From Nitrososphaerota archaeon (GTDB taxonomy: Archaea > Thermoproteota > Nitrososphaeria_A > Caldarchaeales > Wolframiiraptoraceae), in NCBI GenBank assembly GCA_021159365.1, contig JAGGRY010000036.1, positions 4,840 through 68,839 on the forward strand: DNA of 64,000 nt. The letters are read 5' to 3'. The position numbers and the translations under genes were made by a program. Below, one piece after another: positions 47,131 through 55,191 of the stretch. Position 1 is the first letter of the stretch; the number at the start of each line of letters is the position of its first letter. Below the pieces are notes generated by a model that saw only the letters and a list, made by a program, of their open reading frames with translations, had not been told where the DNA came from and made no database searches.

Positions 47131-47760
47131 TCAGCTTCTCGCAAGTTTCTCCTTAAACTTCTTGATGACCGAGCTTAATGAGGGTGGTAGTAAGTTCTCT
47201 TCATCGATCTCGACTTCCTCAATTCTCCTAGGAGTTCCCAAATATTTGAGTTCGACGAGCTCCATTCCCTGGATGGTGCTTTCTAAGACTTTCCTCCTAT
47301 GGATCCCTATCGTGGTTCTGACCTGAACCACTCTTCCTCTTCTATCAAGTCTAAAGACCTTAAACTTTAGATCTCTAAGCTTCCTAGTCTTCGCATAGCT
47401 TACTGGATCCACGACTAATGCGACGGCCTTCGGGAACATCATCTGATACCTCTTCTGAGTCTCGATGTCTATCGCCGATAGAAATAAGCTGAATCCCGGA
47501 TGAGAGTGATACCATCCAACTATGTATAATCCAGGTCTATTTCTCAAAACCCAATCCGCTGCGGCAGCTATCGTATTTTCATCTAGATAGACGAATCCAG
47601 AGGTGGCTCTCTGCGCTCCAGTTACAGCATCCCATATCTCTAAGATGTCATTTTTCTTAAGATATTTTCCTATTAGGAGTCCAGCGACTTCTCTCTCAAG
47701 GTTGCTCAAGGTGTGTTTGATCACTTTCCCGATTGCAAGTGGATAAATCCTCGCCCTCAT
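47131..47760 (-). CDS. JAB1/MPN/Mov34 (JAMM) metalloprotease, Rpn11-like putative deubiquitylase
   Basis: Upstream Glu (EVAGLLIG) and an intact JAMM motif HSHPGFSLFLSAID (H-x-H-x7-S-x2-D). Divergent from the Ub-like gene. Confidence 0.85.
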   Translation of the reverse strand: MRARIYPLAIGKVIKHTLSNLEREVAGLLIGKYLKKNDILEIWDAVTGAQRATSGFVYLDENTIAAAADWVLRNRPGLYIVGWYHSHPGFSLFLSAIDIETQKRYQMMFPKAVALVVDPVSYAKTRKLRDLKFKVFRLDRRGRVVQVRTTIGIHRRKVLESTIQGMELVELKYLGTPRRIEEVEIDEENLLPPSLSSVIKKFKEKLARS

Positions 47761-47942: not shown

Positions 47943-48179
47943 ATGAAGATAAAGGTTGTCCCCGCAATCGGTGGAGGCAGTCCAATAGAGCTTGAAGTTT
48001 CCCCAACGACCACGATAGGCGCGATAAGGGCGAAGGTATGCGCCATGAAGAGGCTTCCACCGGACACCACCAGATTAACTTATAGGGGTAGAGCGCTAAA
48101 AGATGTTGAAACTCTAGCATCTCTCGGAGTACAGGATGGAGACAAGCTTGTATTGATAACGAGAACTGTTGGAGGCTAG
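47943..48179 (+). CDS. Ubiquitin-like protein ending in -RTVGG immediately before the stop
   Basis: 78 aa: MKIKVVPAIGGGSPIELEVSPTTTIGAIRAKVCAMKRLPPDTTRLTYRGRALKDVETLASLGVQDGDKLVLITRTVGG. It aligns by eye along its full length with eukaryotic ubiquitin (MQIFVKT..ITLEVE..DTI..VKAKI....IPPDQQRLIF.GK.LED..TL..Y.IQ..S.LHLVLRLRGG). Confidence 0.9.
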   Translation: MKIKVVPAIGGGSPIELEVSPTTTIGAIRAKVCAMKRLPPDTTRLTYRGRALKDVETLASLGVQDGDKLVLITRTVGG

Positions 48180-48304: not shown

Positions 48305-48805
48305 TTGAACCTCTATCTAATGGCTTTGCTGGCAGAACTCCCTGAGCCGCTATGGTATAAGAGGCTCGCGATCGAGTATAAGCTGATACATGAGCATGAA
48401 CCATTATTCGATATAGTTGAAGGTGATTTAACGCACTATGAGGGGGTTCTAATAGGCTCAGGGCTCTATGAAGGTGGATATTTTAGAGTTGAGATAATTC
48501 TATCGAGGAGCTTTCCATTCGTTCCGCCGAAAGTCATCTGGTGGACTAGGATATGGCATCCGAACTTCACCGATGAGGTTCCGGCGAGGATCTGCGAATC
48601 CATCTTTAAGGATGATTGGAAGCCCCCTCTCCACCTGATAACGGTTATAGGGGCTTTGAGAAATCTCTTGAATAATCCGAATCCAGACGATCCATTAAAC
48701 ACGATAGCGGCGATGGAGATGAAGTTTAGGCCAGACATATTTAAGGCAAGGGTTAGGCAATATATTGAGCTCTATGCAAGACCTGAAAAATCGTTAATAA
48801 AGTAA
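48305..48805 (+). CDS. Ubiquitin-conjugating enzyme (E2, UBC fold)-like protein
   Basis: HPN motif (IWHPNF), candidate catalytic Cys in VPARICESIFKDDWKPPL, and downstream LLNNPNPDDPLN, the same order as in eukaryotic UBC cores. The ATG at 48320 is the more likely start. Confidence 0.85.
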   Translation: MNLYLMALLAELPEPLWYKRLAIEYKLIHEHEPLFDIVEGDLTHYEGVLIGSGLYEGGYFRVEIILSRSFPFVPPKVIWWTRIWHPNFTDEVPARICESIFKDDWKPPLHLITVIGALRNLLNNPNPDDPLNTIAAMEMKFRPDIFKARVRQYIELYARPEKSLIK

Positions 48806-48818
48806 AATAGATGGCTTC

Positions 48819-50042
48819 ATGAAATCTAGTCGAATGTCGGGTTCCAATGAGGCTGAGCTCACTGGTGAATTGCTGGAGCGATATGATAGACAACTTAGGC
48901 TTAAGGGATGGGATCAGAAAAAGCTGATGGATTCTGAGGTGATTATAGTTGGCGTGGGAGCGATAGGATGTGAATTGGCCAAGAATCTCACGTTAATGGG
49001 TGTTGGAAAAATAGTCTTGGTGGATAATGATGTAATCGAGTTATCGAATCTGAATAGGCAGATGCTCTTTACAGATTCAGATATTGGGAAACCTAAGGCT
49101 GAGGTAGCGGCTGAAAAGCTCAAGACCATGAATCCATGGGTGAAAGTTGAATCATACTATAGGGATGTTAGAGAGTTCGATCTAAAGTTCTTCGAAGACT
49201 CAAACGTCCTCGTATCATGCCTCGATAACTGGCCCACTAGGAGATGGTTGAACTCGCTCGCCGTTGAGCTCAATAAACCATTCGTCGACACGGCCATGGA
49301 TGGAATGTATGCGAATCTCCAGATAGTCATCCCGGGGAAGACCGCTTGTCTCGAATGTCATGGAGAGGAGCTTATACCGAAAGAGGTTCAGCTCGCTGAA
49401 TGTACCTTGAGGAGAAGGAAGCCTGAAGATTTGCTTAAGGATTTAAAATCCGAGGGAATAGATCTCAGCCTTGAGACTGTTAAGAAGCTATTCGATTACG
49501 GCATAAAGACCATATTTGACATAAAGTATTCTCAAGCGGATATACTCGAAAAACTTGACGATGATTTAAGAAATGTTGTCATGGATCTTCAGGAGAAACT
49601 TAAGCCTAAGATGCCGGCGCTTCAAAGCATCGCTTCCACGGTCGCTGGAATAGCATCAACAGAGATAATCAAGATCCTCCATGGAGAATCTCTAGGAGAA
49701 ATTCTTAATGGTTTACTTGTTTATGATGGATTCAACTCCAAGTTCACAATCGTCGAGCTTGAGAGGAGAGAAGACTGCTTTGTATGCGGAGATTATGTCA
49801 TGGAGAAAGGAGTGGAGTTCAAGGTAAGGCTTGAAGACACGATCATGGAGCTGAAGAAGAGGATAGCTGAGAGATTCGGCTTCCCAGATCCAGAACTATT
49901 ATATAAGAAGTGGAAGCTAAGCGATGAGAAGAAGGTCTCTGAGCTTGGAATCAAGTCCGGGGACGTGATCTATGTCGAGACCAGTAGAAGATATACGCCT
50001 CTCCCACTTAGGATAGAGGTTGAAGAGAGAGTAAACGATTAA
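48819..50042 (+). CDS. Ubiquitin-activating enzyme (E1)-like ThiF/MoeB/UBA-family adenylyltransferase with C-terminal beta-grasp-like domain
   Basis: YDRQLRL, Rossmann GVGAIGCELAKNL, SNLNRQ, Zn-site pairs CLEC and CFVCG. The C-terminal 80 aa (VEFKVRLEDTIMELKKRIAERFGFP...GDVIYVE) looks like a ubiquitin-fold domain. Confidence 0.85.
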   Translation: MKSSRMSGSNEAELTGELLERYDRQLRLKGWDQKKLMDSEVIIVGVGAIGCELAKNLTLMGVGKIVLVDNDVIELSNLNRQMLFTDSDIGKPKAEVAAEKLKTMNPWVKVESYYRDVREFDLKFFEDSNVLVSCLDNWPTRRWLNSLAVELNKPFVDTAMDGMYANLQIVIPGKTACLECHGEELIPKEVQLAECTLRRRKPEDLLKDLKSEGIDLSLETVKKLFDYGIKTIFDIKYSQADILEKLDDDLRNVVMDLQEKLKPKMPALQSIASTVAGIASTEIIKILHGESLGEILNGLLVYDGFNSKFTIVELERREDCFVCGDYVMEKGVEFKVRLEDTIMELKKRIAERFGFPDPELLYKKWKLSDEKKVSELGIKSGDVIYVETSRRYTPLPLRIEVEERVND

Positions 50043-50050
50043 TATAATGG

Positions 50051-50335
50051 TTGAGATCATATCGAATTGATGCGAGATTGGTGAGAAGGCTCATCCTTAG
50101 AGAACCGGTCTGCAAGGGCTTCTGGGATCCATGGCAAGCCGATGAACAGGTCCTAAAGCCTCCGGAGAGACGTAGACCCGAAAGAGTATGCCAGATATGC
50201 TTATCCGAGATAGAGGAAGGCGTTCCCTACATAGAATGTCCACACTGCGGGAACCCGATGCATAAAAGCTGTCTTGAGAATTGGGTAAGAGTTAAGGGCA
50301 ACGTATGCCCAGTTTGCGGCAGACCCTTACCCTGA
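50051..50335 (+). CDS. Small RING-finger protein (candidate E3)
   Basis: CQIC-x12-CPHC-x4-H-x2-C-x11-CPVC (C4HC3 ligand pattern). There is no in-frame ATG upstream of the finger (TTG 50051 or GTG 50081), so the start is uncertain. Confidence 0.7.
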   Translation: MRSYRIDARLVRRLILREPVCKGFWDPWQADEQVLKPPERRRPERVCQICLSEIEEGVPYIECPHCGNPMHKSCLENWVRVKGNVCPVCGRPLP

Positions 50336-50381: not shown

Positions 50382-50732
50382 ATGGGGGAGGAAGAGGAGA
50401 TAGAGATTCGACCAAGCTATTTGGAGACTCCAGGCGGGAAAAGGGTAGCGACTTACGAGTTTGCAATGAGCTTGGCGAAGGCCATAAAGATAATGTATGA
50501 GGATGATCTCAGTAAGCTTGAGGAGAGGGTGAATAAGTTGGAGGAAGCGGCCAAGATATTCCAAGAATTTGAATCTAGGCTCAGTAATATGGAGAAGTCT
50601 CTCGACGAGCTTGAAAGGAGGCTTGAATTAGATCTCGGAGATATATCAGATAAGCTTTCAGCGTTGATAGACGCTTTTCATGAGCTTGCAGAGAAGGTTG
50701 AGAGATTAGAGGATGTTTTAGCTAGGGGCTGA
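50382..50732 (+). CDS. Coiled-coil protein (116 aa), function unknown
   Basis: A heptad-rich acidic sequence (LEERVNKLEEAAKIFQEFESRLSNMEKSLDELERRLE...). A GGTGATGAGGG SD-like sequence precedes the ATG. Confidence 0.55.
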   Translation: MGEEEEIEIRPSYLETPGGKRVATYEFAMSLAKAIKIMYEDDLSKLEERVNKLEEAAKIFQEFESRLSNMEKSLDELERRLELDLGDISDKLSALIDAFHELAEKVERLEDVLARG

Positions 50733-51555
50733 GAAAGGCTCGACGCATATCCGCTAAGATCCTCTCAAGATTTCCTCTCCTCTCCTCGAGCTCCTTTATC
50801 TCAGCTTCAAGTCTACGCTTTCTCTCGGTTAAGACATTCAATTCTCCCCGCAGTCTGGTAACCTCTTTTTCAAGCTTTTCAGCTTCCATCTCCCTTTCTT
50901 TGAGTTTTGCGATGGCGTCCTTCAGCTCCGCTTCTCTCCTGACAAGTCTTTCCAGTCTTATCTCTCTTAGTCTGAAGTCCCTCAATATTCCTTTGGCTAC
51001 CTCCTCAAACTTGTTCTTCATCTCTTCAAGTCCCTTTAGGTAACGCTCCGAAAGCTCGTTGATCTTACTTTCAAGCTCCATTCTTTTATTTTCAAGGTCT
51101 CTAAGCTCAGCCTCCCTTAGATCCAGTTCTCTCTCTTTTTTCTCAAGTTCATCTCTCCACTTCTTTATCTCCTCGCGCATTATCATCAATTCATCTCTCT
51201 CCTTTCTCAAAGCCTCGATCTGACGTCTAACTTCATCTCTCTCCCTGCTCAAGTTATCGACTATGTCCTTGATTCCCTCTTGAACTGAGAGCAACGTGTT
51301 TTCATAATATCTAACTATAGTCAATTCTTCCGCAACCTTCTCCGCGCTATTGAGGAATGTCTCTAGCTTTGACTTAATTATCTCCGGCTGAGCTGCGACT
51401 TCTTGAGTTAGATTGAGTAAGTTCACAAGCTTATCCTCGATCCTTGAGAGAGATTCATCGAGCTTTGAAGATAACGACTCCTCCAGCCCACCGATCTTCT
51501 CGGAAATCGACTTCTCAAGCTCCTCAAACTTGTCCTTCTTCGTGAAGAGACTCAT
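50722..51555 (-). CDS. Long coiled-coil protein (277 aa), function unknown
   Basis: Nearly continuous E/K/R/L heptads over about 250 aa. Convergent with the previous gene and overlapping it by 11 nt. Confidence 0.55.
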   Translation of the reverse strand: MSLFTKKDKFEELEKSISEKIGGLEESLSSKLDESLSRIEDKLVNLLNLTQEVAAQPEIIKSKLETFLNSAEKVAEELTIVRYYENTLLSVQEGIKDIVDNLSRERDEVRRQIEALRKERDELMIMREEIKKWRDELEKKERELDLREAELRDLENKRMELESKINELSERYLKGLEEMKNKFEEVAKGILRDFRLREIRLERLVRREAELKDAIAKLKEREMEAEKLEKEVTRLRGELNVLTERKRRLEAEIKELEERRGNLERILADMRRAFLSP

Positions 51556-51666
51556 CTTCCCTCAAATCCTAGATTATGAAATATAAAAACTGTTTCCTTA
51601 TGGAGTTTAATGGAACTCTTATAAAAAGCCGTGTAGAAACCCTTCTAGAGAGGTGGAGATGAGAGA

Positions 51667-52398
51667 GTGATAGTCAGCCAAGAGGAGGTTATGGCCAGAT
51701 TCTATAAGGTTGGATCGACTGCGGCGGCGATCGGAGCAATACATATCCTAACCCTATTACTTGCTTGGTACGTTCAAACCGATGCAGGCTCCATAACCGA
51801 GCTTGCTGGATACGTTTTTCCAGAGTCGTTGATGTTATCGCTTATTGGCGGATTGATGGCTGGAATAGGTCTATTGGTAGGCCATATACTCAAGAAGCTT
51901 AAATCCATCAAGTATTCGATTGGAGTTCTCACCGTGATCGGTGGATTGATGGCGATCTCATCCCCAATCTACGTCTATCTTGAACGAATCTTGGCCTTAG
52001 GGATCAAAGGTTATCCAACCATGGGATTCTTCGCCGCGATCTTCACAGGAATAATTCAGCTCGGCATAGGATCTTTAGCCCTCTTAACGCCGATCAAAGA
52101 AGAAGTCGTGCCCATTTCTCAACCGCCAGCCCCGGCTCCGGTTCCAGCGGTCACACCAGCCCCAGCTCAGCCTCCGATTCCAAGAGCTCCCTCTGGAAGG
52201 GGTAGAGGGGCGACTACCAGAATTCTGCCGGCTCCAGATCTTGAAGAAGCTGTCTGCAGTATATGTTATGAGCCTATACCGGTGGGAGAGGCCATGAGGT
52301 GCGCGAACTGTGACGCTGTATTTCATAGAGGATGTATTGAAGCTTGGATGAGTCTTAATGGGACTTGCCCGATCTGTAAAGCGGTCGTCGTGAGTTAG
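51667..52398 (+). CDS. Four-TM membrane protein with Pro/Ala-rich linker and C-terminal RING finger (membrane-anchored E3 candidate)
   Basis: There are 4 hydrophobic segments and a linker PISQPPAPAPVPAVTPAPAQPPIPRAP. The finger is CSIC-x11-CANC-x4-H-x2-C-x10-CPIC, the same ligand spacing class as the small RING at 50051. The likely start is the ATG at 51691, after GAGGAGGT. Confidence 0.7.
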   Translation: MIVSQEEVMARFYKVGSTAAAIGAIHILTLLLAWYVQTDAGSITELAGYVFPESLMLSLIGGLMAGIGLLVGHILKKLKSIKYSIGVLTVIGGLMAISSPIYVYLERILALGIKGYPTMGFFAAIFTGIIQLGIGSLALLTPIKEEVVPISQPPAPAPVPAVTPAPAQPPIPRAPSGRGRGATTRILPAPDLEEAVCSICYEPIPVGEAMRCANCDAVFHRGCIEAWMSLNGTCPICKAVVVS

Positions 52399-52427
52399 CA
52401 TATATTTTGATGTAGCATGAAAATTGA

Positions 52428-53912
52428 ATGGTGCGTGGAGCGATGAGCCAGAGAAGTAAATATGAGCTGGTCATGAGGCTCGCGCTTGAGAGAGGCTTCT
52501 TCATGCCATCATCCGAAATCTATGGAGATGCTCCAGCGGGATTCTGGGACTATGGCCCACTCGGAGTCTCCTTAAAGAATAGATTCATAGAACTTTGGAG
52601 AAGAGAACTCGTTAAGAGGGATGATATGCTTGAGATAGATGGCGCTCAAATACTCTCTAAAAGCGTGTTTAAGGCATCAGGTCATCTCGAGAGCTTTGTA
52701 GATCCGATCGCTAAATGTAGTAAATGTAGGGCGATCTACAGATTGGACAAGTTGATCGAAGAGAAGACTGGAATCCACGTCCCTGAGCGAGCAAGCCTAG
52801 AAGACATGAAAAAGATAATTGAGGAACATGGAATAAGGTGTGGTAGATGTGGAGGCGAGTTAACAGACTTCTCTCATTTCAACATGATGTTCAGGATCGG
52901 AGTCGGCGTGGCCGAGTTGGATGCATATTTGAGACCTGAGACATGTCAAAGCATCTTCATAGATTTCATGAGAATCTATAAGACCATGAGGAGAAAGCTC
53001 CCATTCGCGATAGCTCAAGTTGGAAAGAGCTTTAGAAATGAGATCTCGCCCAGACAGGGGCTTCTACGAATGAGAGAATTCTATCAAGCTGAGATAGAGG
53101 TATTCTTCAACCCAAAAAAGGCGAATGTCTTTGCGAAAGCGGATCCCATCCTAGATTATAAGCTTAGACTGCAGCCGATTGGAGAAGATTCTGTTAAAGA
53201 CATATCGTGTAGGGATGCTTTGAACTCTGGATTGATTTCGAGTAAACTCGTCGCATATTATCTGGCCCTAATCCAGCAATTTTATGAGAAGGCAGGAATT
53301 CCCAGGGAAAAGATTAGACTCAGAGAACTGGATGAAGACGAGAGGGCATTCTACGCAGCTGAGGCTTGGGATCTCGAAGTCGAGACGAGTTTAGGCTGGA
53401 TAGAACTCGTCGCATGTAATAATCGAGGCGAACATGATCTGGGAGGTCATGAGAAGTTGAGCGGTCAAGAGATGACCGTTCTCGATGACGGCGAGAGGGT
53501 TTTGCCAAACGTCTTTGAACTCTCAATGGGAATAGATAGAAGCCTCTACTGCATCTTGGAGAACTCCCTACACCTCGTTAACGATAGAATAGTCCTAAAA
53601 CTTCCTCCATATCTCGCACCTATTCAAGCAGCGGTCTTGCCGCTCTTATCGAGAGAACCTTTCACCGATGAGGCCATGAGTGTTTACCGCTCATTAAAGC
53701 AGGATTTCGACGTGGTTTATGACGAGTCTGGAAGTATTGGGAGAAGGTATGCGAGATATGATGAAGTCGGGGTTCCAATGGATATAACGATAGATCATCA
53801 AACCCTAGAAGATAAAACTGTCACGATTAGGTTTAGGGATTCAACGATTCAGCTCAGAGTTCGAGAGAGCGATTTGAGGAATTTCCTAAGAGATCATCTC
53901 AAAGTTGGATGA
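52428..53912 (+). CDS. glyS: Glycyl-tRNA synthetase (archaeal/eukaryotic alpha2 type)
   Basis: 494 aa with class II motifs: FRNEISPRQGLLRMREFYQAE, and GIDRSLY in motif 3. Confidence 0.9.
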   Translation: MVRGAMSQRSKYELVMRLALERGFFMPSSEIYGDAPAGFWDYGPLGVSLKNRFIELWRRELVKRDDMLEIDGAQILSKSVFKASGHLESFVDPIAKCSKCRAIYRLDKLIEEKTGIHVPERASLEDMKKIIEEHGIRCGRCGGELTDFSHFNMMFRIGVGVAELDAYLRPETCQSIFIDFMRIYKTMRRKLPFAIAQVGKSFRNEISPRQGLLRMREFYQAEIEVFFNPKKANVFAKADPILDYKLRLQPIGEDSVKDISCRDALNSGLISSKLVAYYLALIQQFYEKAGIPREKIRLRELDEDERAFYAAEAWDLEVETSLGWIELVACNNRGEHDLGGHEKLSGQEMTVLDDGERVLPNVFELSMGIDRSLYCILENSLHLVNDRIVLKLPPYLAPIQAAVLPLLSREPFTDEAMSVYRSLKQDFDVVYDESGSIGRRYARYDEVGVPMDITIDHQTLEDKTVTIRFRDSTIQLRVRESDLRNFLRDHLKVG

Positions 53913-53957: not shown

Positions 53958-54623
53958 ATGGCATTGCCTCGCGATAGAGAGGAAGATTTCAGAGTTACGA
54001 TCTTAACTCTAATACAAGATCAGATGAGGAAGGTGGTTGATGGATATAGGACTCTATTAAACATGTTGGAAGACTTCACCGACGGCGCGAAAACTGAGAA
54101 ATTAGAAGAATATTACGACAAGATATTGAAGAACGATGAATCTGCGAAGGAGACGAGTCTAATGATCGAGCGTGAGATAAATAATGTTGGAGCCCTCCTA
54201 ACCGATAGAGAAGGATACATTAGGCTCATGACGGAGATAGATAGGGTTTCGGACATAACTGAGGGAGCGGCATTTAGGCTCCTCAGCCTCAGCAAGATGA
54301 AGGCGAAGTTCGGGAAGAGTTTAACCCAGAAATTCCTCCAGCTCGGCGAAATAGTTCTAACAGCTCTTCTAAGGGCTAGAGAGGCTCTCCTCGCATCAAC
54401 TCTGGATGAGGCGACCTTCCATCAAAAGATTAAGGAAGCTGAGGAATATGAGAAGAAGGCGGATGAACTTTACAGAGTGATCGACTTGGAACTGCTTCAA
54501 AGCAATCTGAAGATAGCTCCGCTCTTATTGAGCAGAGAGGTCGTTGAACTAATCGAAGATATCGCAGATAGGGCTGAGAGGATCGTCGATATCCTGCGAG
54601 CGATCTCCATAACCGTCTTCTAA
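53958..54623 (+). CDS. DUF47/PhoU-like helical protein
   Basis: 221 aa all-helical protein with a two-repeat layout resembling the TIGR00153/DUF47 family. Weak assignment. Confidence 0.4.
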   Translation: MALPRDREEDFRVTILTLIQDQMRKVVDGYRTLLNMLEDFTDGAKTEKLEEYYDKILKNDESAKETSLMIEREINNVGALLTDREGYIRLMTEIDRVSDITEGAAFRLLSLSKMKAKFGKSLTQKFLQLGEIVLTALLRAREALLASTLDEATFHQKIKEAEEYEKKADELYRVIDLELLQSNLKIAPLLLSREVVELIEDIADRAERIVDILRAISITVF

Positions 54624-54633
54624 GGAGAAGGCC

Positions 54634-55191
54634 ATGTCACTCTCGAACATAATTAAGGCGGAGATTGTCCAAGACACAATAATAGTCTGGAATATAGAGG
54701 ATGGCAGAGAGCTTTACAGAGAGGGATTTTATGGAAAACCATTGGGAATAGCTAAGCCGAAGACGGCGGATTTCGACGCTCCATTAATCCTAGACATAAT
54801 TGAGGCGGTCTACTTGGTGGAGAAGGGAAGAATTGAAGTTTATCGAAATGAAAAAAGGCTAAGCCTCGAGGAGCTCATGGAATATGCTGAGAAAAATTAT
54901 GAAAGATTCAAGGAGAGATATCTAGTCTATAAAGATCTGAGGGAGAGGGGATTCGTGGTAACTCCTGGAATAAAGTTTGGAAGCGATTTCGCCGTCTATA
55001 AGCTTGGACCAGGCTTAGAGCACGCCCCATTCATAGTTCAAGTTAAGACTCCATCTGAAAATATCTCAGCCCTAGAGATAGTTAGGTCTGGAAGATTGGC
55101 AACAACGGTTAGAAAGCACTTCACAGTCGCTGTCGCCGATTCAAGTTCTGGTAAGATAGGGTATTTGTTGTTTGAGTGGTGGAGAGCTTAA
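54634..55191 (+). CDS. endA: tRNA-splicing endonuclease
   Basis: YLVYKDLRERGFVVTPGIKFGSDFAVYK...HAPFIVQVK carries the catalytic Y/H/K context of EndA. Confidence 0.85.
   Translation: MSLSNIIKAEIVQDTIIVWNIEDGRELYREGFYGKPLGIAKPKTADFDAPLILDIIEAVYLVEKGRIEVYRNEKRLSLEELMEYAEKNYERFKERYLVYKDLRERGFVVTPGIKFGSDFAVYKLGPGLEHAPFIVQVKTPSENISALEIVRSGRLATTVRKHFTVAVADSSSGKIGYLLFEWWRA

What the first reader, a model, noticed from the sequence alone, without database searches (positions are those of the whole stretch)
51667..52398. Second, membrane-anchored RING-finger paralogue 1.3 kb downstream of the ubiquitin operon
ORF 51667-52398 (likely start ATG 51691 after a GAGGAGGT SD) has four hydrophobic helices and a Pro/Ala-rich linker (PPAPAPVPAVTPAPAQPPIP). 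Its C-terminal finger is CSIC-x11-CANC-x4-H-x2-C-x10-CPIC. The small soluble RING at 50051 has CQIC-x12-CPHC-x4-H-x2-C-x11-CPVC. Both therefore share the same unusual C4HC3 ligand order and near-identical spacing, which argues they are paralogues.

A polytopic membrane protein carrying a cytosolic RING is the architecture of eukaryotic membrane E3 ligases (the ERAD/MARCH type). I do not recall such a membrane-tethered E3 being described as part of the archaeal Ub cassette.
Basis: partly seen in the sequence, partly recalled or inferred. Interest (0 to 1): 0.8.

Follow-up and report, generated by a model that had tools for sequence, protein, structure and literature searches.

The report
Membrane-anchored RING ligase beside archaeal ubiquitin operon
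Next to the eukaryote-like ubiquitin operon of this hot-spring archaeon is a conserved gene for a four-helix membrane protein whose cytoplasmic tail ends in a RING finger. It is most likely a membrane-bound ubiquitin ligase, a type well known in eukaryotes that I could not find described for archaea.

Summary
ORF 51667-52398 (+) encodes a 243-aa protein with four hydrophobic helices, a disordered Pro/Ala-rich tether of about 45 residues, and a C-terminal RING (Pfam zf-RING_2, E=2.9e-10). One correction: translation starts at GTG 51667, not ATG 51691.

The finger aligns without gaps to eukaryotic RING-H2 E3s (Arkadia, RLIM, RNF38, RNF165, Hrd1). Ligand 4 is not the usual His. It is a Cys three residues upstream of C3, and the operon's small RING shares this change.

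The protein belongs to a family I found only in Caldarchaeales (Aigarchaeota). In most lineages the gene order is JAB | Ub-E2-E1-srfp-cc | cc | TM-RING-GlyRS. Some lineages have lost the link to Ub/E2/E1 or to srfp. At least three assemblies with an unlinked copy still appear to encode the E2.

The charge bias of the loops and the AlphaFold model both put the RING in the cytoplasm.

Novelty is tempered. The C4HC3 spacing was published for the C. subterraneum srfp in 2011, and Fuchs et al. (2018) mention "a second E3 protein" next to that operon. I found no description of its membrane domain. E3 activity, the E2 partner and the substrates are inferred, not shown.

The parts
51667..52398 (+). 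TM-RING gene, 243 aa, GTG start, stop codon included
   Evidence: ORF. Family alignment A1 and start-codon comparison across 30 loci.
51619..51627 (+). TATA-box-like TTATAAAAA, 48 nt upstream of the GTG start; candidate promoter of the TM-RING gene
   Evidence: A TTTATAA(A/G)-type element sits about 38-48 nt upstream of the start codon in nearly all related loci. Function inferred.
51650..51658 (+). Shine-Dalgarno-like GAGGTGGAG, 8 nt before the GTG start
   Evidence: Sequence. GGAG/GGGG-rich stretches lie at the same place in homologous loci. Function inferred.
51712..51780 (+). TM helix 1 (about residues 16-38), with near-invariant His26 and Trp34; the most conserved segment
   Evidence: Hydropathy, AF2 helix 5-31, mean pairwise identity 0.56.
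51763..51807 (+). Short beta-hairpin in loop 1-2 (residues 33-47), predicted to lie outside the cell
   Evidence: AF2 strands 33-39 and 42-47. The loop averages 0.27 K/R and 2.2 D/E per sequence.
51826..51894 (+). TM helix 2 (about residues 54-76), followed by the K/R-rich cytoplasmic loop KKLKSIK
   Evidence: Loop 2-3 averages 2.3 K/R in 7 residues across the family.
51916..51984 (+). TM helix 3 (about residues 84-106), with invariant Ser99 and near-invariant Pro100 and Tyr102
52021..52092 (+). TM helix 4 (about residues 119-142), with invariant Gly120
52093..52236 (+). Disordered Pro/Ala/Thr-rich cytoplasmic tether (residues 143-190)
   Evidence: pLDDT below 50 for residues 147-179. Length 31-78 residues and mean identity 0.23 across the family.
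52255..52377 (+). RING finger, C197 to C237, followed by Lys238 at the linchpin position
   Evidence: Pfam zf-RING_2. PDB sequence hits to Arkadia, RLIM, RNF38, RNF165 and Hrd1. RING-only AF2 model at pLDDT 89, with Foldseek hits to RING-E2 complexes.
50722..51555 (-). cc277: conserved coiled-coil protein, transcribed divergently from the TM-RING gene
   Evidence: Conserved at this position in nearly all loci (alignment A6). No informative family match.
50382..50732 (+). cc116: conserved small coiled-coil protein directly after the small RING gene
   Evidence: alignment A7. No informative family match.
50051..50335 (+). srfp: small soluble RING finger protein, last gene of the Ub operon and paralogue of the TM-RING finger
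   Evidence: Pfam zf-RING_2 at 38.8 bits and Prok-RING_1 at 30.1 bits (cut-off 29.1). BLASTP against the TM-RING gives E=1e-8.
48819..50042 (+). E1-like enzyme (ThiF domain plus C-terminal ubiquitin-like domain)
48305..48805 (+). E2-like enzyme (UQ_con), the presumed partner of both RINGs
   Evidence: The partnership is inferred.
47943..48179 (+). Ubiquitin gene, ending in GG followed directly by the stop codon
47131..47760 (-). Rpn11-like JAB/MPN deubiquitinase
52428..53912 (+). Glycyl-tRNA synthetase, the most constant neighbour of the TM-RING gene. Listed as context, not as part of the system.
   Evidence: A TATA-like element lies in the 29-bp gap here and in several related loci.

Best explanation
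The gene encodes a membrane-embedded RING-type ubiquitin ligase.

**Architecture (shown or predicted here)**
- The N-terminus is in the cytoplasm.
- Four helices form a compact bundle with a short hairpin on the outside.
- A flexible Pro/Ala tether of about 45 residues then holds a C-terminal RING in the cytoplasm.
- The RING is a RING-H2 derivative. Site 1 is C197, C200, H220, C223. Site 2 is C212, C215, C234, C237.
- C215 sits at the canonical C3 position. C212 replaces the canonical His at ligand 4.
- The finger keeps the residues that eukaryotic RINGs use to dock an E2: Ile199, Trp227 and Pro235. It also keeps a Lys at the linchpin position that activates E2~Ub.

**Proposed mechanism (inferred)**
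1. The RING binds the Ub-charged E2 encoded 3 kb upstream.
2. It promotes transfer of ubiquitin onto lysines of membrane or membrane-proximal proteins.
3. Substrates are chosen by the conserved membrane bundle, or by the two coiled-coil proteins that nearly always lie between it and the small soluble RING.
4. The soluble srfp would serve cytosolic targets and the TM-RING membrane targets.

E2 pairing, catalysis, substrates and their fate are all inferred.
For: **RING identity**
- zf-RING_2 matches in all 22 diverse family members.
- The finger aligns without gaps to Arkadia (E=1.8e-9), RLIM, RNF38, RNF165, ZNRF3, RNF13, Hrd1 and gp78 RINGs.
- The RING-only AF2 model has pLDDT 89. Its best Foldseek matches are RING domains crystallised with E2 or E2~Ub: 6w7z, 5d0k, 6w9d and 5zbu, at rmsd 1.7-2.8 A over about 47-60 residues.

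**E2-docking residues**
- Trp227 is invariant and Pro235 and Lys238 are at least 90% conserved among the 40 closer members.
- Ile199 is at least 90% conserved in the broader alignment A2.

**Topology**
- The N-tail and loop 2-3 each average 2.3 K/R. Loop 1-2 averages 0.27.
- The model's 4-TM bundle with an outside hairpin gives weak matches to claudin/TARP tetraspans, which are N-in/C-in.

**The membrane domain is constrained**
- TM helices have 0.40-0.56 mean identity and the RING 0.48. The linker has 0.23.

**Link to the Ub system**
- The order JAB | Ub-E2-E1-srfp-cc | cc | TM-RING is found in Wolframiiraptor, Geocrenenecus, Terraquivivens, Pelearchaeum and Caldarchaeum loci, down to 34-38% identity.
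- srfp-cc-cc-TM-RING stays together in four lineages where Ub/E2/E1 is no longer upstream.
- Assemblies with an unlinked TM-RING still encode the E2, judged by close protein accession numbers.

**Precedent**
- The paralogous srfp of C. subterraneum is an experimentally shown E3 (PMC5654768).
Against: - No experiment or complex model ties this RING to the E2.
- The gene has its own TATA box and is transcribed divergently from cc277, so it is not in the Ub operon transcript.
- Its most constant neighbour is GlyRS, a housekeeping gene. Part of the synteny may therefore be inherited gene order rather than functional linkage.
- In Calditenuaceae-type loci it stands with GlyRS alone.
- A MAG labelled C. 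subterraneum has Ub-E2-E1-srfp-cc-cc with no TM-RING in the 2.7 kb before the contig ends.
- Two distant members lack the E2-docking Trp (P0045, P0052).
- From memory of Burroughs et al. 2011, which I could not read here: not all prokaryotic RINGs act in ubiquitin pathways.
Confidence: 0.65

Rival explanations
1. It is a non-catalytic partner or membrane receptor. The TM-RING would pair RING-to-RING with the small soluble srfp, as BARD1, Bmi1 or MdmX do with their partners. It would thereby bring the active srfp-E2~Ub complex to the membrane or regulate it, with little ligase activity of its own.
For: Two paralogous RINGs are kept in one conserved block, srfp-cc-cc-TM-RING, even where Ub/E2/E1 has moved away. 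Distant members lose the docking Trp or the linchpin Lys, ending CP-x-C-G instead.
Against: Most members keep the full E2-docking set of Ile, Trp, Pro and linchpin Lys. Calditenuaceae-type loci keep the TM-RING with no srfp nearby. The model shows none of the flanking helices that typically mediate RING dimers.
Confidence: 0.12
2. It is a membrane zinc-finger protein with a role outside ubiquitylation, for example a scaffold or signalling protein. Its place beside the Ub operon would then be inherited gene order.
For: The strongest linkage is to GlyRS, not to the Ub genes. The gene has its own promoter. From memory of Burroughs et al. 2011, prokaryotic RING and treble-clef fingers have non-Ub roles.
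Against: I found the family only in the Caldarchaeales, the archaeal order in which this eukaryote-like Ub system was first described. Its closest finger relative is an experimentally proven E3 (PMC5654768). The E2-docking residues are conserved. Co-occurrence with the E2 holds in the unlinked cases I could check.
Confidence: 0.18
3. The ORF is spurious, or the Cys/His pattern is a chance match or a PHD-type or other treble clef rather than a RING.
For: The spacing C-x2-C-x4-H-x2-C formally fits the PHD consensus. Weak Pfam PHD and C1 hits appear.
Against: There are about 50 sequence clusters of full-length homologues with a conserved reading frame. PHD scores 18.2 bits, below its cut-off of 24, and C1_1 scores 22.4-22.5 bits, below its cut-off of 26.5, while zf-RING_2 passes. 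All of the best sequence and fold matches are RING E3s.
Confidence: 0.02

Closest known systems
Small RING finger protein (srfp, CSUB_C1477) of the Caldiarchaeum subterraneum Ub operon (Nunoura 2011; Hennell James 2017)
   Same: Same ligand order and spacing, C-x2-C-x11-C-x2-C-x4-H-x2-C-x10-C-x2-C. Same relocated ligand 4. Same order of archaea and same locus. Reciprocal HMM scores of 39-47 bits.
   Different: srfp is a soluble protein of 66-94 aa and the last gene of the operon. This protein adds a conserved 4-TM bundle and a long tether, and has its own promoter. Only srfp has been tested biochemically.
The 'second E3 protein' adjacent to the C. subterraneum operon (Fuchs et al. 2018, PMC6043591)
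   Same: Very probably the orthologue. A Caldarchaeum sp. locus has a 229-aa TM-RING in exactly that position.
   Different: [quoted passage not shown] I could not retrieve the C. subterraneum genome to confirm that the two are the same gene.
Eukaryotic RING-H2 membrane E3 ligases (Hrd1/synoviolin, gp78/AMFR, RNF13 and ZNRF3 of the PA-TM-RING group)
   Same: Membrane anchor plus a cytoplasmic RING-H2-type finger. The finger aligns to their RINGs (Hrd1 E=1.5e-6, ZNRF3 6e-8, RNF13 1.6e-7).
   Different: The membrane domains are unrelated: 8 TM in Hrd1, a single TM plus a luminal PA domain in RNF13/ZNRF3. Ligand 4 is Cys, not His. No partner such as Hrd3 or Der1 is evident.
MARCH / viral K3 RING-CH (RINGv) ligases
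   Same: Small membrane proteins with a C4HC3 finger that target membrane proteins.
   Different: The RINGv spacing (C-x-C-x(4-8)-H, as scanned) is not met. Pfam RINGv does not match this protein. In MARCH the RING is N-terminal to two TM helices, whereas here it is C-terminal to four. K3 is only a marginal hit (E=0.0066).
Pfam Prok-RING_1 (PF14446; Burroughs, Iyer and Aravind 2011)
   Same: A prokaryotic RING family found in Ub-type gene neighbourhoods. The window's srfp passes its cut-off, and 10 of 22 TM-RING family members match at E<=1e-3. From memory, the Pfam entry says the bacterial versions carry TM helices.
   Different: The window's TM-RING itself does not reach the model. The family here is archaeal, with a conserved 4-TM bundle. 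I could not read the 2011 paper to compare architectures.
Claudin / PMP22 / TARP-gamma tetraspan fold
   Same: A four-helix bundle, N-in and C-in, with beta strands in the first outside loop. These are the best Foldseek hits for the full-length model.
   Different: The match is weak (E about 1e-3, TM-score 0.42-0.54, 14-19% identity) and may only reflect general 4-helix packing. There is no sequence relationship.

Membership tests
RING finger (Pfam zf-RING_2, PF13639) | Profile score above the curated cut-off | tested here: met
   40.7 bits against a cut-off of 27.3, E=2.9e-10. All 22 diverse family members match.
RING finger | Eight Zn ligands with cross-brace spacing, and the RING fold | tested here: met
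   Eight invariant ligands. AF2 RING model at pLDDT 89, with best fold matches all RING E3 domains. Zinc binding itself was not tested.
RING E3 ligase (functional class) | E2-docking surface: hydrophobic residue in the C1-C2 loop, Trp on the helix, Pro in the C7-C8 loop, basic linchpin residue after C8 | tested here: met
   Ile199, Trp227, Pro235 and Lys238 align with the corresponding residues of Arkadia and RLIM and are conserved. Trp is lost in 2 distant members.
RING E3 ligase (functional class) | Stimulates Ub transfer from a charged E2 | not testable with these tools
   Needs biochemistry. No multimer modelling was available.
RING-H2 subclass (C3H2C3) | His at ligand 4 (C-x-H-x2-H) | tested here: not met
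   The canonical H4 column holds Ala217. A Cys three residues before C3 takes its place (alignment). It is a derivative, not a canonical member.
RINGv / RING-CH (MARCH, K3) | C4HC3 with C-x-C-x(4-8)-H spacing (the pattern scanned) and a match to PF12906 | tested here: not met
   The spacing here is C-x2-C-x4-H. There is no PF12906 hit for this protein at E<=0.1.
PHD finger | C4HC3 and a profile match to PF00628 above its cut-off | tested here: not met
   18.2 bits against a cut-off of 24. Sequence and fold neighbours are RING E3s, not PHDs.
Prok-RING_1 (PF14446) | Profile match above its cut-off | tested here: inconclusive
   The window protein does not match. 10 of 22 family members match at E<=1e-3. 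The srfp passes, at 30.1 bits against 29.1.
ERAD-type ligases (Hrd1, gp78, Doa10) | Homologous multi-spanning membrane domain | tested here: not met
   No Pfam domain in residues 1-190. The listed Foldseek hits of the full model are almost all claudin/TARP-type tetraspans, and none is an ERAD ligase. Only the RING is similar.
Archaeal Ub cassette component | Consistent gene neighbourhood with Ub, E2, E1 and srfp | tested here: met
   Adjacent in about 19 distinct complete loci across at least five genera. Exceptions.
Archaeal Ub cassette component | Co-occurrence with Ub/E1/E2 in the same genome when unlinked | tested here: inconclusive
   Accession numbers lie close together in several assemblies, for example MCS7117185 (TM-RING) and MCS7117315 (E2), and MDW8073226 and MDW8073130, whose clusters both list an 813,701-bp longest contig. 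This is indirect, and whole genomes could not be scanned.
Cytoplasmic orientation of the finger | N-in/C-in topology | tested here: met
   Prediction only. K/R bias 2.3 (N-tail) and 2.3 (loop 2-3) against 0.27 (loop 1-2). There is an even number of TM helices.

The most novel reading that the evidence does not exclude
Caldarchaeales have a membrane arm of their eukaryote-like ubiquitin system. A polytopic RING ligase would use its conserved 4-TM bundle to recognise membrane proteins. With the operon's E2, and perhaps the two co-conserved coiled-coil proteins, it would mark those proteins for extraction and proteasomal degradation or for sorting. That would be an ERAD/MARCH-like pathway in a TACK archaeon. 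It would show that membrane-tethered ubiquitylation does not require eukaryotic endomembranes and could predate them.
Probability: 0.3. Interest if true: 0.8.

Novelty: new variant of a known kind. Interest (0 to 1): 0.55.

Why it matters
Work on the archaeal ubiquitin cascade has dealt with one soluble RING and artificial substrates. Natural targets are unknown.

A second, membrane-embedded RING conserved across the order points to the membrane as a place to look for real substrates. It also gives a simple prokaryotic model for how membrane E3 ligases select clients.

A 2026 review of ER, mitochondrial and chloroplast ubiquitin pathways (PMC13328587) credits archaea only with Cdc48, the 20S particle and a primitive ubiquitin cascade. 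It mentions no membrane ligase.

Relatives are now in culture: Wolframiiraptor gerlachensis (PMC9246946) and Calditenuis (PMC12979851). The idea can therefore be tested.

Tried and rejected
**Readings rejected**
- *ATG 51691 as the start.* Rejected from homologue alignment and codon comparison.
- *PHD, RINGv or C1 identity of the finger.* Rejected on Pfam scores and on sequence and fold neighbours.
- *Homology of the membrane domain to known E3 membrane domains.* None found. There were only weak claudin/TARP-like fold hits, no Pfam domain and no NCBIfam model.
- *An operon with GlyRS.* Doubtful, because a TATA-like element sits in the short gap in several loci, including the window.

**Searches that led nowhere**
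- *Function of the two coiled-coil neighbours.* Pfam, NCBIfam and PDB profile searches gave only generic coiled-coil matches.
- *A locus scan with the most diverse alignment (A2).* It failed for lack of a conserved stretch. The narrower A3 pattern worked but could not reach the most divergent subfamily. Those loci were fetched one at a time instead.
- *Reading Burroughs et al. 2011 (PMC5938088).* Not held. Statements about it rest on memory and on a review's summary.
- *Whole-genome presence or absence of Ub/E1/E2.* Could only be approximated through accession-number proximity.
Full report
**1. What is in the sequence**

The window carries a eukaryote-like ubiquitin cluster. In order:

| Gene | Coordinates | Strand |
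|---|---|---|
| Rpn11-like JAB protease | 47131-47760 | - |
| Ubiquitin | 47943-48179 | + |
| E2 | 48305-48805 | + |
| E1, with a C-terminal Ub-like domain | 48819-50042 | + |
| Small RING protein, srfp (94 aa) | 50051-50335 | + |
| Coiled-coil protein cc116 | 50382-50732 | + |
| Coiled-coil protein cc277 | 50722-51555 | - |
| The ORF in question | 51667-52398 | + |
| Glycyl-tRNA synthetase | from 52428 | + |
| PhoU_div protein | 53958-54623 | + |
| tRNA-intron endonuclease | 54634-55191 | + |

Homologue names place the organism among Wolframiiraptor-like Caldarchaeales (Aigarchaeota).

**2. Check of the observation**

The 243-aa product has four hydrophobic segments, at about residues 16-38, 54-76, 84-106 and 119-142. 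It has a Pro/Ala-rich stretch. It has the finger C197-x2-C200-x11-C212-x2-C215-x4-H220-x2-C223-x10-C234-x2-C237. The srfp has the same ligand order with x12 and x11 spacers.

These are the only two such motifs in the window. Pfam zf-RING_2 matches both above its cut-off. BLASTP between them gives 33% identity over 60 residues, E=1e-8.

- The residues IVSQEEV before the proposed Met are conserved as protein.
- The "Met" is Ala, Thr, Leu, Val or Ile in homologues, and the codons there cannot initiate.
- The real start is GTG 51667. It is preceded by GAGGTGGAG (51650-51658) and a TATA-like TTATAAAAA (51619-51627).
- A TATA-like element recurs about 38-48 nt upstream of the start in nearly all related loci.
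- The gene therefore has its own promoter, divergent from cc277, and is not part of the Ub operon transcript.

**3. The family**

A word-indexed search found 39 full-length homologues at 48-93% identity. A profile search of 1.84 billion representatives found about a dozen further full-length clusters at E=1e-63 to 1e-28. After those, the hits match the RING alone, and 121 of the 149 hits listed carry only the RING-H2 pattern.

Where sources give a name, the organisms are Aigarchaeota, Caldarchaeales, Calditenuaceae, Pelearchaeum and Wolframiiraptor, plus one bin labelled WOR-3 that is probably mis-binned. The proteins are machine-named "RING finger protein" or "hypothetical protein".

All members share the architecture: a conserved N-tail, four TM helices, a variable tether of 31-78 residues, and the C4HC3 finger. 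The TM helices have 0.40-0.56 mean pairwise identity and the RING 0.48. The tether has 0.23. Near-invariant polar or helix-breaking residues sit in the membrane part: His26, Ser58, Ser99 and Pro100, and Gly120. The membrane part is therefore more than a passive anchor.

**4. Structure and topology**

AlphaFold2 with the family alignment gave a mean pLDDT of 83.9. The model has:
- helices at 5-31, 52-75, 78-109 and 119-140;
- a beta hairpin at 33-47 in the first loop;
- a disordered stretch at 147-179;
- a well-defined finger.

Across the family the N-tail and loop 2-3 each average about 2.3 Lys/Arg. Loop 1-2 averages 0.27 and is acidic. By the positive-inside rule this gives N-in/C-in, which places the finger in the cytoplasm.

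Foldseek of the whole model found only weak matches to claudin and TARP-gamma tetraspans (E about 1e-3, TM-score about 0.5). Those proteins have the same topology and an outside sheet in loop 1. I treat this as a description of shape, not as homology.

**5. The finger**

PDB sequence search aligns the finger without gaps to RING-H2 E3s:

| Structure | E-value |
|---|---|
| Arkadia | 1.8e-9 |
| An Arabidopsis RING protein, AT5G66160 | 9.5e-9 |
| RLIM | 2.6e-8 |
| ZNRF3 | 6.3e-8 |
| RNF38 | 6.5e-8 |
| RNF165 | 7.3e-8 |
| RNF13 | 1.6e-7 |
| Hrd1 | 1.5e-6 |
| gp78 | 3.3e-5 |

In those alignments Cys215 occupies canonical C3. The canonical His4 column holds Ala217. Cys212 lies three residues upstream and supplies the missing ligand. 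The finger is thus a RING-H2 derivative. It is not a RINGv or a PHD, and both were tested and rejected.

A RING-only model (pLDDT 89) best matches RINGs crystallised with E2 or E2~Ub: RNF12-Ube2d2, RNF165-UbE2D2-Ub and RNF13-E2~Ub. Ile199, Trp227, Pro235 and a Lys at the linchpin position are present and conserved. They are the E2-docking and activating residues of eukaryotic RINGs, by established knowledge of RING-E2 complexes.

**6. Are the two RINGs paralogues?**

Both families carry the relocated ligand without exception: 33 distinct srfp fingers and 33 distinct TM-RING fingers from the loci.

| HMM built from | Scored against | Median bits (range) |
|---|---|---|
| srfp fingers | TM-RING fingers | 47 (40-52) |
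| srfp fingers | 137 best non-family hits (mostly RING-H2) | 35 (maximum 48) |
| TM-RING fingers | srfp fingers | 39.5 |
| TM-RING fingers | the same 137 hits | 37 |

(All.) The 137 comparison sequences were selected for similarity to the TM-RING profile, so the comparison is conservative. Together with the shared rare character, a paralogue relationship is well supported, though a 45-residue domain cannot prove it.

**7. Gene neighbourhood**

I compared 44 loci with tblastn and with the gene calls.

- **Complete order.** JAB | Ub-E2-E1-srfp-cc | cc | TM-RING-GlyRS occurs in about 19 distinct loci. They span Wolframiiraptor, Geocrenenecus, Terraquivivens, a Pelearchaeum-related group, the P0043 group and Caldarchaeum sp. 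(L043, a 229-aa TM-RING). TM-RING identity falls to 34-38% in these. The genes upstream of JAB differ between these groups.
- **srfp-cc-cc-TM-RING without Ub/E2/E1 upstream.** L004/L005, L032, L035 and L036.
- **E1-srfp-cc-cc-TM-RING without Ub or E2 upstream.** Geocrenenecus huangii, L019.
- **Split by an IS-flanked inversion.** In L038-L040, srfp-cc-cc is separated from TM-RING-GlyRS.
- **TM-RING-GlyRS alone.** Calditenuaceae-type loci L033/L034.
- **Ub operon without the TM-RING.** One MAG labelled C. subterraneum (L041) has Ub-E2-E1-srfp-cc-cc followed by a peptidase gene.

Three points follow.
1. The most constant neighbour is GlyRS. In several loci, including the window, GlyRS seems to have its own TATA in the gap.
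2. The block srfp-cc-cc-TM-RING is more persistent than its link to Ub/E2/E1.
3. Adjacency to the Ub genes is the rule but not universal.

For assemblies with an unlinked TM-RING, protein accession numbers show an E2 in what is almost certainly the same assembly:
- MCS7117185 and MCS7117315;
- MDW8073226 and MDW8073130, whose clusters both list an 813,701-bp longest contig;
- MEM0445440 and MEM0445590.

This is indirect evidence of co-occurrence.

**8. Most likely function**

The protein is most likely a membrane-anchored RING E3. It would recruit the locus-encoded E2~Ub to the cytoplasmic face of the membrane. It would ubiquitylate membrane or membrane-proximal proteins chosen by the conserved TM bundle or by the coiled-coil neighbours.

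- Shown or predicted here: domain architecture, fold, orientation, conservation and neighbourhood.
- Inferred: E2 pairing, catalysis, substrates and their fate.

I put this at about 0.65. The rivals are:
- a non-catalytic RING partner or receptor for srfp (0.12);
- a zinc-finger membrane protein unrelated to ubiquitin, whose position reflects inherited gene order (0.18);
- an artefact (0.02).

**9. What is already known**

- Nunoura et al. 2011 (PMC3082918) printed the same C4HC3 spacing for the C. subterraneum srfp.
- Hennell James et al. 2017 (PMC5654768) showed that srfp is an E3. They noted the out-of-register C3/H4 and an extra "C3B" cysteine. Their text and supplement mention no membrane RING.
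- Fuchs et al. 2018 (PMC6043591) state that the operon is "adjacent to a second E3 protein". [quoted passage not shown]
- A 2024 review calls C4HC3 typical of prokaryotic RINGs.
- Genomic surveys of Aigarchaeota/Caldarchaeales and a 2026 review of ERAD-like pathways do not mention an archaeal membrane E3.
- From memory, the Pfam Prok-RING_1 entry (Burroughs et al. 2011) says bacterial members carry TM helices. I could not read that paper.

The gene's existence and the ligand pattern are therefore known. I could not find any of the following described:
- the polytopic membrane architecture;
- the conserved family across the order;
- the persistent four-gene block;
- the GlyRS linkage.

**10. 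Verdict**

This is a real, conserved gene. It is a new variant of a known kind: a membrane-tethered RING E3, here archaeal, with its own type of 4-TM domain. Interest is moderate to good. It is not categorically new. It does give the archaeal ubiquitin field a concrete, testable lead towards natural substrates and towards the origin of membrane-associated ubiquitylation.

Noticed in passing
window 47943-48179: The ubiquitin gene ends exactly at Gly-Gly followed by the stop codon, so the protein is made already mature. The same holds in three Wolframiiraptor-type loci (L001, L006, L016). Other Caldarchaeales loci carry 2-15 extra residues after GG, like the C. subterraneum precursor that Rpn11 must trim.
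   Followed up: partly
window 50382-50732 (+) and 50722-51555 (-): Two coiled-coil proteins of unknown function (116 and 277 aa) converge with an 11-bp overlap. They follow the small RING gene in essentially every Caldarchaeales locus examined. Pfam, NCBIfam and PDB searches returned only generic coiled-coil matches.
   Followed up: partly
L004 3631-5654; also L014, L017, L020: In Geocrenenecus-type loci the GlyRS gene next to the TM-RING is broken into fragments. A second GlyRS, only 51-54% identical, sits beside it. This looks like replacement of the gene by a divergent copy.
   Followed up: no
L038 17462-19761; L039, L040: An inversion bordered by DDE-transposase (IS) genes has separated srfp-cc-cc from TM-RING-GlyRS by about 7 kb, relative to the related locus L032.
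   Followed up: partly
protein P0040 (ENA contig of 10,185 bp): A 307-aa protein whose first 93 residues are 93% identical to the TM-RING N-terminus, followed by a HisKA/HATPase histidine kinase. It is either a real domain swap or an assembly chimera.
   Followed up: no
protein P0049 (JGI contig of 78,711 bp): A Caldarchaeum-like copy with the 4-TM domain intact but a frameshifted C-terminus and no RING. It is either a pseudogene or a sequencing error. Errors of this kind could hide the RING in some annotations.
   Followed up: no
protein P0096 (288 aa, origin unknown): An unrelated membrane protein with two fingers of the pattern C-x2-C-x11-C-x2-C-x4-H-x2-H and extra zinc ribbons. It hints that TM-linked fingers of this prokaryotic type exist outside this family.
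   Followed up: no
L019 4067-6544: In Geocrenenecus huangii the genes upstream of E1 are a HypD-like protein and a MIT-AAA ATPase that looks Vps4/CdvC-like from its sequence. Ub, E2 and JAB are not found within the 6.8 kb upstream.
   Followed up: no
window 52084-52401 (-): A 105-aa antisense ORF overlaps the linker and RING coding region. It has no support and is most likely spurious.
   Followed up: no
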